DNA of 64,000 nucleotides from NCBI GenBank assembly GCA_030647355.1, contig JAUSIS010000009.1:512-64511 (forward strand). Reading direction: 5' to 3'. Below the pieces are notes generated by a model, which made no database searches, was not told the DNA's origin, and saw nothing but the letters and a program-made list of their open reading frames with translations. A program made the position numbers and the translations under genes. The DNA comes from a bacterium (lineage in GTDB: Bacteria; Patescibacteriota; UBA1384; VFKW01). Every line of letters begins with the position of its first letter. Positions within the stretch are counted from its first letter, which is position 1. Of this stretch, positions 37,288 through 39,340 are shown piece after piece.

Positions 37288-37353
37288 ATAAAAACACAAA
37301 AAGCGCCTAGAGAAATCCGGGCGCTTTTTGTAAAATAATCACTTGGTGGAGCT
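37288..37353. repeat. 66-bp direct repeat copy 2 (contains tmRNA 3' end and its terminator)
   Basis: See copy 1; overlaps last 10 nt of ssrA (AGCTCCACCA on minus strand). Confidence 0.85.
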
Positions 37354-37724
37354 GGGGAGAATCGCACTCCCGTCCAGAAATTTTTCAACGTATCATCTAC
37401 AAGCTTAGTTTGTTCTTCATCTTTAGTACAATCTCTAGAACAAACGGAACAATTGCACTGCAGTCTCATAGAGACTTAGACTAACGCGAGACTTAATTAG
37501 TTTGCAATCCGATTTTTTGGCGTTCTGTCTAGTGCCTTCGGCATCGAGTCACTAGGGAACGGCTTTCGGTTTTAGGCGAAAGCTGGCGCAAAAGTCATGC
37601 CAGCAAAAGCTGTCTTGACTCTGCTAATAAATGTATTGGCACTTATTGTTGTGTTTAATTCGTATCGTGAATTTGACGACTTGCAGATACTGTCTTCCAA
37701 CCCCTGTCGAACTATAACAGCCCC
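37344..37724 (-). ncRNA. ssrA: tmRNA (SsrA), 381 nt
   Basis: Minus strand 5' GGGGCUGUUAUAGUUCGACAGGGG... 3' ...GGACGGGAGUGCGAUUCUCCCCAGCUCCACCA: G3-U70 acceptor stem, T-arm and encoded CCA, closely matching E. coli ssrA ends. SmpB gene at 49468. Candidate tag ORF ending ...AFA-UAA. Confidence 0.75.
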
Positions 37725-37773: not shown

Positions 37774-37802
37774 AATATAGCACATTTTAGCGGTTTTGTC
37801 AA
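37774..37802 (-). promoter_or_regulatory. candidate ssrA promoter
   Basis: Minus strand TTGACA-17 nt-TATATT about 50 nt upstream of mature 5' end. Confidence 0.5.
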
Positions 37803-37876
37803 TTGTAATGATAGTATTGAAAACTCAATTTATTATCATTATAATATTAATAAGATCTATAAAAAGAAAGGGAGAA

Positions 37877-38083
37877 ATGGTTAAATGCGCAGTGTGCGAG
37901 AGTTCGGTTGAGGAAGACGATCTTCCTATCTTCAGTGAATATGGCGGTAGACAATATTACTTTTGCTCGGTTGGATGTCGAGAAGAATTTGAGTATGATC
38001 AGGAGAAATATTTAAAAAATTTGGATAAAGAAGAAAATAGCCGAGAAGTCGCTACAGACGATGGAGCGGGTAATCTAGGATAA
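37877..38083 (+). CDS. small YHS/TRASH-like metal-binding zinc-ribbon protein (start at internal ATG with AAAGGGAG SD)
   Basis: MVKCAVCESSVEEDDLPIFSEYGGRQYYFCSVGCREEFEY matches C-x2-C...FCS-x2-C TRASH/YHS pattern. Confidence 0.5.
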   Translation: MVKCAVCESSVEEDDLPIFSEYGGRQYYFCSVGCREEFEYDQEKYLKNLDKEENSREVATDDGAGNLG

Positions 38084-38299
38084 TAAGTTCGGGACGGTTA
38101 TGCGGAAACACAGGCACAATTTAATATATATTTTATTAATATTACTTATTATTGCCCTGGTTGGACTTTTTAGTGCAAGTAACGGAAAGAAGATAGGTAA
38201 ATCAGGTAAGAAAGTGAGTGGTTTTAGTATTGAAAGATAGTAAAACTAAAATCAGAGTTCAAATTTCGATCTATTAGATCGGTTTTATTAGAATCTCTC

Positions 38300-38328
38300 T
38301 TGACATAATGTAAAGAAAACTTTACATT
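38300..38328 (+). promoter_or_regulatory. promoter with overlapping perfect palindromic operator
   Basis: TTGACA-17-TACATT; palindrome AATGTAAAG aaaa CTTTACATT (38307-38328) spans spacer and -10. Confidence 0.55.
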
Positions 38329-38345
38329 ATTTATGCGGAGAGAGA

Positions 38346-39029
38346 ATGAAAGAGATTGAAATAAGACTTAGAGATTTGAGGAAAGAGCACAATTTGAGCC
38401 AGGAAGAGTTGGCATCAAATCTTGGTGTTTCAAGGCAGTCAATAATTTCTTTGGAGCGAGGAGAATATTTACCATCATTACCATTAATTATTGATCTGGT
38501 TAAATTTTTTGAAATCCCTTTTGACGAAATTGTCTGTTGCGAAGGGATTAGAATCGAGAAAGGAGGTGAGATAGAGATGGCAAGAGAAATTACTCCATGG
38601 TCACCTTTTAGAGAGGTGAATAGTCTTCATGATGCAATCGACCGAATGTTTGACGATACTCTAGCTACTTCGCGCATATCACCTATGCCAGCGGTGACTC
38701 CCCCTTCTATCAACCTGAGAGAAACCGATAAATCTATTATTGCCGAGGTAGAATTGCCCGGGGTTAAAGACGAGGATATTGATGTTGAGATATCAGAAGA
38801 CTCGATCACCATCACAGGAGAAAAGAAAACCGAACAAGAAATAAAAGAAAAGGATTATTATCGCAAAGAATTCAGTTATGGATCTTTCGCTAGAACTATC
38901 CCTTTACCTGTTGTGGTAATTTCTGATAAGGCGGAAGCAAAGTTGAAAGAGGGCGTACTGACAGTAGAGGTGCCCAAGGCGGAGGCGCCAAAGGCAAAAG
39001 CGAAGAAGATACAGATTAAGAGGCAGTAA
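38346..39029 (+). CDS. XRE-family HTH domain fused in frame to Hsp20/alpha-crystallin small heat-shock protein; internal start at 38577 also likely
   Basis: Residues 1-65 LRDLRKEHNLSQEELASNLGVSRQSIISLERGE (Cro/C1 HTH); residues 78-227 alpha-crystallin domain (PSINLRETDKSIIAEVELPGVKDEDIDVEI...GVLTVEVPK); AAAGGAGGTGA SD 7 nt before in-frame ATG 38577; no stop between. Confidence 0.7.
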   Translation: MKEIEIRLRDLRKEHNLSQEELASNLGVSRQSIISLERGEYLPSLPLIIDLVKFFEIPFDEIVCCEGIRIEKGGEIEMAREITPWSPFREVNSLHDAIDRMFDDTLATSRISPMPAVTPPSINLRETDKSIIAEVELPGVKDEDIDVEISEDSITITGEKKTEQEIKEKDYYRKEFSYGSFARTIPLPVVVISDKAEAKLKEGVLTVEVPKAEAPKAKAKKIQIKRQ

Positions 39030-39035
39030 AACAAA

Positions 39036-39060
39036 AAACGTCCGAACGGGCGTTTTTTGA
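39036..39060 (+). terminator. terminator after hsp20
   Basis: AACGTCC gaac GGGCGTT followed by TTTTT. Confidence 0.55.
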
Positions 39061-39211: not shown

Positions 39212-39285
39212 GGGCTCGTAGCTCAGTTGGTTAGAGCGTTTCCTTGACGTGGAAAAGGTCTGCAGTTCGAGTCTGCACGAGCCCA
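39212..39285 (+). tRNA. tRNA-Val (anticodon GAC)
   Basis: GGGCTCG TA GCTC AGTTGGTTA GAGC G TTTCC TTGACGT GGAAA AGGTC TGCAG TTCGAGT CTGCA CGAGCCC A: 74-nt cloverleaf, CCA not encoded. Confidence 0.85.
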
Positions 39286-39340
39286 CAAGAAAAAGAATGT
39301 CCCTAAAGATGTCCCTAATTAAGGTGAGGGGAGGTCACGG

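What the first reader, a model, noticed from the sequence alone, without database searches (positions are those of the whole stretch)
38300..39029. In-frame XRE-HTH plus Hsp20 fusion with internal ribosome-binding site and palindromic operator in its own promoter
A 65-aa Cro/C1-type HTH runs without any stop codon through a 12-aa linker (CCEGIRIEKGGEIE) into a complete alpha-crystallin small heat-shock protein. The linker DNA encodes a strong Shine-Dalgarno (AAAGGAGGTGA) 7 nt upstream of the in-frame ATG at 38577.

The locus can therefore yield a fused regulator-chaperone of 227 aa. It may also yield a stand-alone Hsp20 from internal initiation.

The promoter (TTGACA-17-TACATT) is overlapped by a perfect 9-4-9 palindrome, AATGTAAAGaaaaCTTTACATT, covering the spacer and the -10 element. 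That is the expected position for autorepression by the HTH.

A heat-shock regulator physically fused to its chaperone is unusual. It could sense unfolded-protein load directly through titration of the Hsp20 moiety.
Basis: seen in the sequence. Interest (0 to 1): 0.6.

Follow-up and report, generated by a model that had tools for sequence, protein, structure and literature searches.

The report
Repressor fused to small heat-shock chaperone
One gene in an uncultured ultra-small (CPR) bacterium joins a DNA-binding repressor domain to a small heat-shock chaperone, can apparently also make the chaperone alone from an internal start, and its binding site also sits in front of the main chaperone operons of related bacteria, so it looks like an undescribed heat-shock regulator standing where HrcA stands in other CPR bacteria.

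Summary
ORF 38346-39029 encodes 227 aa: an XRE helix-turn-helix, a linker and a complete Hsp20. The internal Shine-Dalgarno (SD) site, the ATG at 38577 and the palindrome over the promoter are all present.

It is not a sequencing error. More than 75 protein clusters and 51 genome loci, all Patescibacteria/CPR, carry the same fusion at 35-69% identity.

1. The promoter-operator cTTGACAaaATGTAAAG-N4-CTTTACATT is nearly invariant upstream of the fusion gene in 50 of 51 homologous loci, plus the window.
2. The internal ATG with AAGGAG(G) is kept in every member that retains the sHSP N-terminal region. The motif sits in different codon phases and shows strong synonymous-codon bias. The first start usually lacks an SD and lies 6-8 nt after the -10, so the long form is probably leaderless.
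3. The same promoter-operator precedes grpE-dnaK-dnaJ and groES-groEL on Berkelbacteria-like contigs that lack hrcA and CIRCE. CPR loci with hrcA have CIRCE and no such operator.

Best reading: an autoregulated heat-shock repressor with a built-in chaperone sensor. DNA binding, the two protein products and titration are untested. The regulon has not been shown in a genome that carries the fusion.

The parts
38266..38290 (+). Terminator-like hairpin plus T-run that closes the upstream small ORF and isolates the fusion gene as its own transcription unit
   Evidence: stem 38266-38282, then TTTTATT; I4.
38300..38305 (+). -35 hexamer TTGACA
   Evidence: The same position reads TTGAC in 85-92% of 52 fusion promoters (51 homologous loci plus the window).
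38305..38330 (.). Operator: perfect 11-4-11 palindrome ATAATGTAAAG-aaaa-CTTTACATTAT. The conserved core TGTAAAG-N4-CTTTACA is at 38309-38326.
   Evidence: The core is exact in 49 of 51 homologous loci and in the window, with one mismatch in L010. Per-position conservation is 0.98-1.0.
38323..38328 (+). -10 hexamer TACATT, lying inside the right operator half-site
38337..38345 (+). Weak SD-like GGAGAGAGA in a predicted 5' UTR of about 10-11 nt, ahead of the first start codon
   Evidence: Duplex energy with the anti-SD is -6.6 kcal/mol. Most homologues have no leader at all.
38346..39029 (+). Long ORF, 227 aa: HTH, linker and full sHSP (the long isoform, the putative repressor)
38367..38531 (+). 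XRE/Cro-C1 helix-turn-helix domain (residues 8-62). The recognition helix S29-R30-Q31 is invariant in the family.
   Evidence: PF01381. (invariant Q19, S29, R30, Q31, E37, G39, P43, S44). (pLDDT above 90). (nearest solved structures: 9k3w PbsX-family, CylR2).
38535..38576 (+). Linker (residues 64-77, CCEGIRIEKGGEIE), predicted to be flexible
   Evidence: pLDDT 50-56. Linker length is variable in the family.
38559..38569 (+). Internal Shine-Dalgarno AAAGGAGGTGA, 7 nt before the internal ATG
   Evidence: Duplex energy is -13.2 kcal/mol.
38577..39029 (+). Nested in-frame ORF, 150 aa: a canonical stand-alone sHSP (the short isoform)
   Evidence: 68 of 77 family members have Met in this alignment column. 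Stand-alone sHSPs of 142-150 aa align from their residue 1 to about this profile position.
38577..38702 (+). sHSP N-terminal region (residues 78-119) with the P-W-x-P-F motif
   Evidence: One search gives a helix at 89-104 and disorder at 100-116.
38703..38978 (+). Alpha-crystallin domain (about residues 120-211)
   Evidence: Invariant residues R183, A198, G203, L205, P210, K211.
39009..39017 (+). C-terminal I-x-I anchoring motif (I222-Q-I224)
   Evidence: Read from the sequence. An I/V-x-I/V motif is conserved at this position in the alignment.
39032..39059 (+). Intrinsic terminator-like hairpin after the stop codon

Best explanation
The gene encodes an autoregulated stress repressor whose sensor is a chaperone fused to it.

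**Proposed mechanism**
1. The long product is HTH, linker and sHSP. It binds as a dimer or higher oligomer to the palindrome TGTAAAG-N4-CTTTACA. The half-site centres are 11 bp apart.
2. The palindrome fills the -35/-10 spacer and contains the -10 hexamer, so a bound protein would exclude RNA polymerase.
3. The same mRNA carries a strong internal SD and an in-frame ATG. This start would produce an ordinary 150-aa sHSP in larger amounts than the long form. In most relatives the long form starts on a leaderless or SD-less mRNA.
4. In the clade to which this organism belongs (Berkelbacteria and relatives), the identical promoter-operator also precedes grpE-dnaK-dnaJ and groES-groEL. The protein therefore probably acts as the heat-shock repressor of the clade, in the place HrcA/CIRCE holds in other CPR bacteria.
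5. Induction is proposed to occur when unfolded clients, or a temperature-driven change in sHSP oligomer state, draw the sHSP moiety of the long form away from DNA. Repression would return when free sHSP capacity, mostly the short isoform, is restored.

**Shown by sequence and comparison**
- The fusion itself.
- The conserved operator.
- The conserved internal start.
- The operator in front of chaperone operons.
- The mutual exclusion between this operator and hrcA/CIRCE.

**Inferred**
- DNA binding by this protein.
- Production of two proteins.
- That the chaperone operons are controlled by this protein in the same cell.
- The titration step.
For: **The fusion is real and old**
- Pfam finds HTH_3 plus HSP20.
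- More than 75 clusters at 90% identity carry both domains at 35-69% identity to the window protein.
- 51 genome loci carry the fusion, all from Patescibacteria MAGs.
- Roughly 75-90 full-length representatives appear at the 50% clustering level (my rough count from the 150 rows listed).

**Operator**
- The core is exact in 49 of 51 homologous loci and in the window.
- The consensus is cTTGACaaaATGTAAAGttTaCTTTACATT, with core positions 0.98-1.0 conserved.
- The HTH recognition-helix residues are invariant.
- Stand-alone 65-75-aa XRE genes with the same signature sit next to the same motif in other phyla. This indicates a cognate HTH-operator pair.

**Internal start**
- An ATG is present in 43 of 43 loci that keep the sHSP N-terminal region.
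- Median anti-SD duplex energy is -9.4 kcal/mol, against -2.6 for background. 86% of sites reach -8 or lower, against 2.9% of background (Mann-Whitney p = 5e-28).
- The GGAG core occupies all three codon phases, in 25, 14 and 3 loci.
- K-E dipeptides at the site are encoded AAGGAG in 20 of 23 cases, against 13 of 164 elsewhere in the same ORFs (Fisher p = 2e-15).
- The window organism uses SD-led starts in general.
- The main start has no SD in most loci. In 13 loci it lies 6 nt after the -10, and in about 32 loci within 13 nt of it.

**Regulon**
- The metagenome scan found the TTGACA-nn-operator architecture upstream of grpE-dnaK (L113, L132, L144, L153), of dnaK (L062, L066) and of groES-groEL (L095).
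- Six GrpE homologues were then chosen by protein similarity only. All six have the operator 25-100 nt upstream of grpE-dnaK-dnaJ with 0-1 mismatch. They are L175, L176, L177, L183, L184 and L190.
- The three GrpE loci that have hrcA upstream (L185, L194, L196-198) have CIRCE and no such operator. The operator-bearing loci have no CIRCE and no adjacent hrcA.

**Structure and analogy**
- AlphaFold gives two confident domains joined by a low-confidence linker.
- E. coli IbpA is a documented sHSP that senses aggregates and represses its own expression and that of sigma-32 (bioRxiv 10.1101/2020.04.20.050740; PMC10410725).
Against: - No genome was shown to carry both the fusion gene and an operator-controlled chaperone operon. 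The chaperone loci and the fusion loci lie on different contigs or MAGs. The window and all fusion loci with flanks of 3-10 kb contain only the one operator.
- Stand-alone XREs with the same operator exist in other phyla. A separate small XRE could therefore be the regulator of dnaK and groES.
- Several sub-clades have lost the sHSP N-terminal region and the internal start (L031, L040-L047, L043). The two-isoform design is thus not obligatory, and the main client-binding region is dispensable for whatever those proteins do.
- Nothing tests binding, translation from either start, or client titration.
- The efficiency of leaderless translation in CPR bacteria is unknown, so the isoform ratio is a guess.
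- The anti-SD sequence was assumed rather than read from this genome's 16S rRNA.
Confidence: 0.6

Rival explanations
1. The protein is an autoregulator only. It represses its own promoter so that sHSP output is self-limiting, with the alpha-crystallin domain serving merely as the dimerisation or oligomerisation module of the repressor. The chaperone operons that carry the same operator are controlled by another protein, a stand-alone XRE paralogue, or they belong to organisms that lack the fusion.
For: - Only one operator is found in the window and within 3-10 kb of every fusion locus.
- Stand-alone XREs with the same operator are common.
- No same-genome link was obtained.
- Variants lacking the sHSP N-terminal region keep the HTH, the alpha-crystallin domain and the operator.
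Against: - The promoter-operator architecture at grpE and groES is identical base for base to that of the fusion gene.
- The chaperone loci come from the same CPR lineage. GrpE relatives are named Berkelbacteria or Patescibacteria, and Berkelbacteria MAGs carry the fusion.
- The chaperone loci lack hrcA and CIRCE, so they need some other regulator.
- Fusion to a heat-shock protein is hard to explain for a regulator unrelated to heat shock.
Confidence: 0.2
2. The protein is an intrinsic thermosensor rather than a client-titration sensor. Temperature shifts the sHSP oligomer-dimer equilibrium or unfolds part of the fusion, and this directly lowers operator affinity without any need for unfolded clients. 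This would resemble RheA of Streptomyces albus, CtsR, or HrcA of Campylobacter.
For: - From general knowledge of sHSPs, not tested here: their oligomers are temperature-dependent.
- Variants without the client-binding N-terminal region still keep the HTH, the alpha-crystallin domain and the operator.
- Intrinsic thermosensing repressors are documented (PMC8533110, seen only as a title and abstract in the hit list; the paper was not opened).
Against: - Most members keep a complete sHSP with the N-terminal region and the I-x-I motif, which are the parts needed for client binding and oligomer assembly.
- No data here discriminate between the two modes, and they are not mutually exclusive.
Confidence: 0.15
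3. The internal SD and ATG are a relic of the ancestral gene junction, or a by-product of a Lys/Glu/Gly-rich linker. Only the 227-aa fusion is made.
For: - Linkers rich in K, E and G give purine-rich codons.
- Some clades do without the internal start.
Against: - The motif is kept at 35% protein identity and changes codon phase between clades.
- Synonymous choice is strongly biased: 87% AAGGAG at the site against 8% elsewhere.
- The Met coincides with residue 1 of stand-alone sHSPs.
- The motif is lost exactly in those members that lost the sHSP N-terminal region.
Confidence: 0.05

Closest known systems
HrcA/CIRCE with GroEL feedback, the classical repressor of dnaK and groE operons in many bacteria
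   Same: Negative control of grpE-dnaK-dnaJ and groESL through an inverted repeat at the promoter. Feedback through a chaperone is proposed here too. CPR lineages such as the Moranbacteria-type loci still use HrcA/CIRCE.
   Different: There is no homology. The protein has an XRE HTH instead of the HrcA fold, and the operator is TGTAAAG-N4-CTTTACA instead of TTAGCACTC-N9-GAGTGCTAA. The chaperone is covalently part of the repressor rather than a separate partner, and it is an ATP-independent sHSP rather than GroEL.
E. coli IbpA as an aggregation sensor (bioRxiv 10.1101/2020.04.20.050740; PMC10474464; PMC10410725)
   Same: An sHSP that represses its own synthesis and reports free sHSP capacity. 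Sequestration on aggregates relieves repression. IbpA also acts on the master heat-shock regulator.
   Different: IbpA acts on translation by binding mRNA 5' UTRs. The system here would act on transcription through a fused DNA-binding domain. Most family members have no 5' UTR at all, and no thermometer-like RNA fold was found.
RheA/hsp18 (Streptomyces albus), HspR/HAIR and CtsR: dedicated heat-shock repressors (from general knowledge)
   Same: A repressor that controls an sHSP or chaperone gene from an inverted repeat overlapping the promoter, with autoregulation.
   Different: In those systems the regulator and the chaperone are separate genes and unrelated protein families. None carries an alpha-crystallin domain.
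Small stand-alone XRE repressors of the CylR2/PbsX type (PDB 9k3w, 1utx)
   Same: These are the closest solved relatives of the HTH. Proteins of 65-75 aa with the same V-S-R-Q..I..E.G.Y.PS signature sit next to the same ATGTAAAG-N4-CTTTACAT motif in other phyla.
   Different: They have no chaperone domain. In the metagenome hits, membrane-protein genes also follow the motif; heat-shock genes follow it only on the CPR-like contigs.
Genes that give two isoforms by in-frame internal initiation (ClpB 95/80 kDa, IF2 alpha/beta, CheA L/S; from general knowledge)
   Same: One mRNA, two in-frame starts, and a short form that lacks an N-terminal functional domain. ClpB is itself a heat-shock chaperone.
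   Different: Here the N-terminal extension is a sequence-specific DNA-binding domain. The two forms would therefore be a regulator and its effector, and the long form is typically leaderless.

Membership tests
Small heat-shock protein (Hsp20/alpha-crystallin, PF00011) | Alpha-crystallin domain scoring above the curated threshold | tested here: met
   76.1 bits against a cut-off of 20.8; matches to solved sHSPs 6ewn, 3w1z and 1gme; beta-sandwich with pLDDT about 90.
Small heat-shock protein (Hsp20/alpha-crystallin, PF00011) | Conserved Arg of strand beta7 and the A-x-x-x-x-G-V-L motif | tested here: met
   R183, A198, G203 and L205 are invariant in 77 family members.
Small heat-shock protein (Hsp20/alpha-crystallin, PF00011) | C-terminal I/V-x-I/V anchoring motif and an N-terminal region | tested here: met
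   IQI at residues 222-224, and P-W-S-P-F in the N-terminal region.
Small heat-shock protein (Hsp20/alpha-crystallin, PF00011) | Oligomer formation and holdase activity | not testable with these tools
   Needs protein biochemistry.
XRE/Cro-C1 helix-turn-helix repressors (PF01381) | HTH_3 domain scoring above the curated threshold | tested here: met
   56.4 bits against a cut-off of 23; five-helix bundle with pLDDT above 90.
XRE/Cro-C1 helix-turn-helix repressors (PF01381) | Palindromic operator at the regulated promoter, conserved together with the protein | tested here: met
XRE/Cro-C1 helix-turn-helix repressors (PF01381) | Demonstrated sequence-specific DNA binding and repression | not testable with these tools
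   Needs EMSA, footprinting or a reporter assay.
HrcA/CIRCE heat-shock regulon | HrcA domain (PF01628) in the regulator | tested here: not met
   no HrcA match. The protein resembles this regulon in proposed function only.
HrcA/CIRCE heat-shock regulon | CIRCE element TTAGCACTC-N9-GAGTGCTAA at chaperone promoters | tested here: not met
   no CIRCE in the window or in any operator-bearing chaperone locus. CIRCE is present only in loci with hrcA.
Two-isoform genes with in-frame internal initiation | In-frame internal start codon with its own ribosome-binding site, conserved | tested here: met
Two-isoform genes with in-frame internal initiation | Two protein products detected | not testable with these tools
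   Needs western blotting, N-terminal proteomics or Ribo-seq.
IbpA-type sHSP self-regulation through mRNA binding | A structured 5' UTR or RNA thermometer that the sHSP binds | tested here: not met
   Most family members are leaderless. The fold around the internal SD is no better than shuffled sequence (z = -0.11).

The most novel reading that the evidence does not exclude
In a whole branch of the Candidate Phyla Radiation, HrcA has been replaced by a repressor that is itself a chaperone. On this reading one leaderless mRNA yields a rare DNA-bound HTH-sHSP and an abundant free sHSP, and the two co-assemble. The partition of the long form between the operator and unfolded-protein or sHSP assemblies would then set transcription of all major chaperone operons: the fusion gene itself, grpE-dnaK-dnaJ and groESL. 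That would be chaperone titration in its most direct form, with sensor and effector in one polypeptide.
Probability: 0.4. Interest if true: 0.85.

Novelty: new variant of a known kind. Interest (0 to 1): 0.75.

Why it matters
- **CPR proteostasis.** How bacteria with the smallest genomes control proteostasis is largely unknown. CPR organisms are mostly uncultured, so regulators have to be read from sequence. This locus, with its relatives, points to a complete candidate heat-shock circuit with a regulator, an operator, a regulon and an internal feedback element. None of this was found in the searched literature.
- **Mechanism.** The chaperone-titration model (sigma-32/DnaK, HrcA/GroEL, HspR/DnaK, IbpA/mRNA) is usually hard to dissect, because sensor and regulator are separate and bind weakly. 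A natural covalent fusion is small (227 aa) and has a defined 22-bp operator. The model therefore becomes directly testable in vitro and in E. coli.
- **Translation.** The locus is a clean natural case of a leaderless long form and an SD-led short form on one mRNA.
- **Use.** It could serve as a compact stress-responsive repressor module.

Tried and rejected
- **Sequencing error or lost stop codon.** Rejected. 51 independent genome loci and more than 75 protein clusters are fused in the same way.
- **Second operator copies.** None was found in the window at up to 3 mismatches. At 4 mismatches only chance-like hits appear. None was found within 3-10 kb of any fusion locus.
- **dnaK, grpE or groES near the fusion.** tblastn found none in the window or in L001-L053. 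No fusion gene lies on the chaperone contigs.
- **Same-genome link between the fusion and operator-controlled chaperone operons.** Four routes failed:
  - Comparing WGS prefixes and assemblies from GrpE look-ups with the fusion MAGs gave no overlap.
  - By accession proximity, the window protein MDO8513528.1 and GrpE MDO8472082.1 come from the same submission batch but different MAGs.
  - A third homologue search with a Berkelbacteria GrpE gave no named hit from a fusion-bearing MAG.
- **RNA thermometer masking the internal SD.** The fold is no better than shuffled sequence (z = -0.11). The 5' end of the mRNA gives z = -1.5. Not supported.
- **L053 (Clostridia).** This is an ordinary small XRE followed by membrane proteins, with a chance-like operator match. 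It was set aside.
- **Literature.** Five full-text searches found no description of an HTH-Hsp20 fusion, of this operator, or of a CPR heat-shock regulator. Absence from that library does not prove absence from all literature.
- **Structure search.** No fold search was run with the AlphaFold model, because the sequence search of the PDB already identified both domains.
Full report
**1. What is in the window**

The + strand carries a single open frame from 38346 to 39029, 227 aa. Pfam places an XRE/Cro-C1 helix-turn-helix (HTH) at residues 8-62 (HTH_3, E 3e-15). It places an Hsp20/alpha-crystallin domain at residues 126-225 (E 2.6e-21). NCBIfam adds only sub-threshold similarity to Hsp18/Hsp14 and to phage-type XRE repressors.

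The sHSP part is complete:
- An N-terminal region with P-W-S-P-F.
- The alpha-crystallin domain.
- A C-terminal I-Q-I anchoring motif.

AlphaFold2, run with a 77-sequence alignment, gives two confident domains. The HTH has pLDDT above 90 and the alpha-crystallin domain about 90. A low-confidence linker and N-terminal region join them, and pTM is 0.41, meaning no fixed mutual orientation.

Upstream lie TTGACA (38300-38305), a 17-nt spacer and TACATT (38323-38328). A perfect 11-4-11 palindrome, ATAATGTAAAG-aaaa-CTTTACATTAT, spans 38305-38330. It is unique in the window even at three mismatches, where 0.05 matches are expected by chance.

Inside the linker, AAAGGAGGTGA (38559-38569) precedes the in-frame ATG at 38577 by 7 nt. 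Terminator-like hairpins flank the unit at 38266-38282 and 39032-39059.

**2. The fusion is a conserved family, not an artefact**

A search of 5.8 billion proteins returned the identical protein from an NCBI MAG, named 'Hsp20 family protein [bacterium]'. It also returned more than 75 further clusters that carry both domains, at 35-69% identity and 203-277 aa. The named ones come from Patescibacteria and Berkelbacteria.

A scan of one genome per species found 53 loci. Of these, 51 encode the fused protein, all in Patescibacteria/CPR MAGs. One is the complete Berkelbacteria genome CP011213.1.

An exhaustive profile search of 1.84 billion representatives shows roughly 75-90 full-length fusions among the listed top hits at the 50% clustering level (my rough count). 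The HTH recognition helix (S29-R30-Q31) and the classic sHSP residues (R183, A198, G203, L205) are invariant. No homologous locus has the two halves as separate genes.

**3. The operator is conserved almost base for base**

In 49 of 51 homologous loci and in the window, the core TGTAAAG-N4-CTTTACA is exact upstream of the fusion gene. L010 has one mismatch and L052 has no site. The four spacer bases vary.

The whole promoter reads cTTGACaaaATGTAAAGttTaCTTTACATT, with the -10 hexamer inside the right half-site. The proteins are only 35-69% identical, so this degree of DNA conservation indicates selection on a binding site. Its position is the classical one for repression by occlusion.

The half-site centres are 11 bp apart, about one helical turn. 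That spacing fits a dimer bound on one face of the DNA (inference).

**4. The internal start is under nucleotide-level selection**

Every locus that retains the sHSP N-terminal region (43 of 43) has an in-frame ATG a few residues before the P-W-x-P-F motif. AAGGAG(G) lies mostly 6-11 nt upstream of it.
- Predicted pairing with the anti-SD has a median of -9.4 kcal/mol, against -2.6 for all other positions in the same ORFs.
- 86% of these sites reach -8 or lower, against 2.9% of background (Mann-Whitney p = 5e-28).
- The motif lies in different codon phases in different clades: K-G-G-E is AAA GGA GGT GAG, G-K-E is GGA AAG GAG, and N-K-E-A is AAT AAG GAG GCA.
- K-E dipeptides at the site are written AAGGAG in 20 of 23 cases, against 13 of 164 elsewhere in the same genes (Fisher p = 2e-15).

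The Met column is occupied by Met in 68 of 77 family members. Stand-alone sHSPs of 142-150 aa align from their first residue to about this position. Members that lost the N-terminal region (L031, L040-L047, L043) lost the ATG and the SD together. The window organism uses SD-led initiation generally. A functional internal initiation site that yields a canonical 150-aa sHSP is therefore well supported, though still only by sequence.

**5. The long form is usually leaderless**

In 13 loci the first ATG lies exactly 6 nt after the -10 hexamer, so its A is the expected transcription start. About 32 loci have at most 13 nt between the -10 and the ATG. Most first starts have no SD, with a median duplex energy near zero.

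The window is a mild exception. It has 17 nt between the -10 and the ATG, containing GGAGAGAGA (-6.6 kcal/mol).

The recurring design is thus a leaderless or weakly initiated long form and a strongly SD-led short form on one mRNA. That this gives little regulator and much chaperone is an inference.

**6. The same promoter-operator precedes the main chaperone operons**

- **Non-CPR contigs.** The motif precedes 65-75-aa stand-alone XRE genes with the same V-S-R-Q..I..E.G.Y.PS signature. The HTH and the operator are therefore an old cognate pair. The nearest solved structures are a PbsX-family regulator (9k3w) and CylR2.
- **TTGACA-nn-operator architecture.** Here the motif precedes fusion genes, grpE-dnaK (L113, L132, L144, L153), dnaK (L062, L066) and groES-groEL (L095). 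Gene identities were confirmed by tblastn and Pfam.

I then took GrpE homologues chosen only by protein similarity. Their named relatives are Berkelbacteria and Patescibacteria. I fetched their genomic context.
- Six of six without an adjacent hrcA have the operator upstream of grpE-dnaK-dnaJ at 0-1 mismatch. They are L175, L176, L177, L183, L184 and L190, the last being Berkelbacteria GW2011_GWA2_38_9.
- Three of three with hrcA upstream have CIRCE and no such operator. They are L185 (Moranbacteria), L194 and L196-198.

The chaperone-promoter consensus is CTTGACAaAATGTAAAG-N4-CTTTACATT, the same as that of the fusion gene.

**7. Interpretation**

The most economical reading is that the HTH-sHSP protein is the repressor acting at this operator. 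It would autoregulate and, in this CPR branch, occupy the place of HrcA/CIRCE at the dnaK and groE operons.

The fused sHSP is the obvious candidate sensor. Either unfolded clients or temperature-dependent changes in oligomer state would remove the long form from DNA. The short isoform from the same mRNA would restore free capacity and allow re-repression.

E. coli IbpA shows that an sHSP can act as an aggregation sensor. IbpA represses its own synthesis and that of sigma-32, although it does so at the level of mRNA (bioRxiv 10.1101/2020.04.20.050740; PMC10474464; PMC10410725).

My confidence by step:

| Step | Confidence |
|---|---|
| Real conserved fusion | about 0.99 |
| Autoregulation through the operator | about 0.85 |
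| Functional internal start | about 0.85 |
| The fusion is the regulator of the chaperone operons | about 0.6-0.7 |
| Client titration as the signal | about 0.4-0.5 |

**8. Main weaknesses**

- I could not show the fusion gene and an operator-controlled chaperone operon in one genome. They lie on different contigs, and the routes I tried failed.
- Stand-alone XREs with the same operator exist, so another protein could serve the chaperone promoters.
- Some sub-clades have dropped the N-terminal region and the short isoform. In those the protein may be a pure regulator.
- No RNA thermometer was found around either start.
- Five literature searches found no prior description. This limits the novelty claim to the library searched.

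**9. Verdict**

- It works like a chaperone-feedback heat-shock repressor but is not a member of the HrcA, HspR, CtsR or RheA families.
- It is a member of both the Hsp20 and the XRE families by their sequence criteria.
- I rate it a new variant of a known kind of system, with high interest. It offers a compact, directly testable form of the chaperone-titration idea and a candidate master stress regulator for a large uncultured lineage.

Noticed in passing
window 37344-37724 (-); 39212-39286 (+): A tmRNA gene with tag peptide ANTFISRVKTAFAGMTFAPAFA lies just upstream of the locus, and a tRNA-Val(GAC) lies just downstream.
   Followed up: no
window 37796-38083 (+); L191 9687-9872: A small YHS-domain (Cys-rich, metal-binding type) ORF sits directly upstream of the fusion gene. 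The order YHS, fusion, DsbA-like thioredoxin, glycosyltransferase is kept in a relative, GCA_040961635.1.
   Followed up: partly
L084, L090, L099, L100, L103, L118, L125, L128, L147, L157, L158, L163, L172: ATGTAAAG-N4-CTTTACAT also lies immediately upstream of 65-75-aa stand-alone XRE genes on metagenome contigs that look non-CPR. On other contigs it lies upstream of small membrane-protein genes. This points to a widespread autoregulated small-XRE family that shares the operator.
   Followed up: partly
L185 4122-4148; L194 179-205; L196 4931-4957: Other CPR lineages (Moranbacteria-type) keep hrcA-grpE-dnaK with a perfect or near-perfect CIRCE and lack the TGTAAAG operator. The two regulatory systems look mutually exclusive.
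   Followed up: yes
P0198, P0203, P0205, P0208, P0210, P0215, P0221: GrpE fused to a NUDIX hydrolase domain (PF01025 plus PF00293) recurs among relatives of the CPR GrpE proteins. This is another unusual chaperone-system fusion.
   Followed up: no
P0298, P0318, P0323, P0420: Proteins of 700-1000 aa show 8-11 separate matches to the HTH part of the profile. They appear to be long arrays of tandem XRE helix-turn-helix domains.
   Followed up: no
L051 2992-3420; L052 2971-3399: Two Berkelbacteria loci encode a 142-aa HTH fused to only a truncated alpha-crystallin domain. L052 has no operator and sits between a permease-like gene and a probable pyrH (UMP kinase; my reading of the sequence, not tested).
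   Followed up: partly
L176 3954-3971; L010 854-871 and L183 1928-1945: Two operator variants were seen. In L176 the right half-site reads CTTGACA and no TTGACA lies upstream, so the half-site may double as the -35. The variant TGTCAAG occurs both at a fusion gene (L010) and at a grpE promoter (L183), in different MAGs.
   Followed up: no
window 38333-38359 (+): An out-of-frame ATG lies at about the predicted transcription start. It opens an 8-codon mini-ORF (ATG CGG AGA GAG AAT GAA AGA GAT TGA) that overlaps the main start codon (seen).
   Followed up: no
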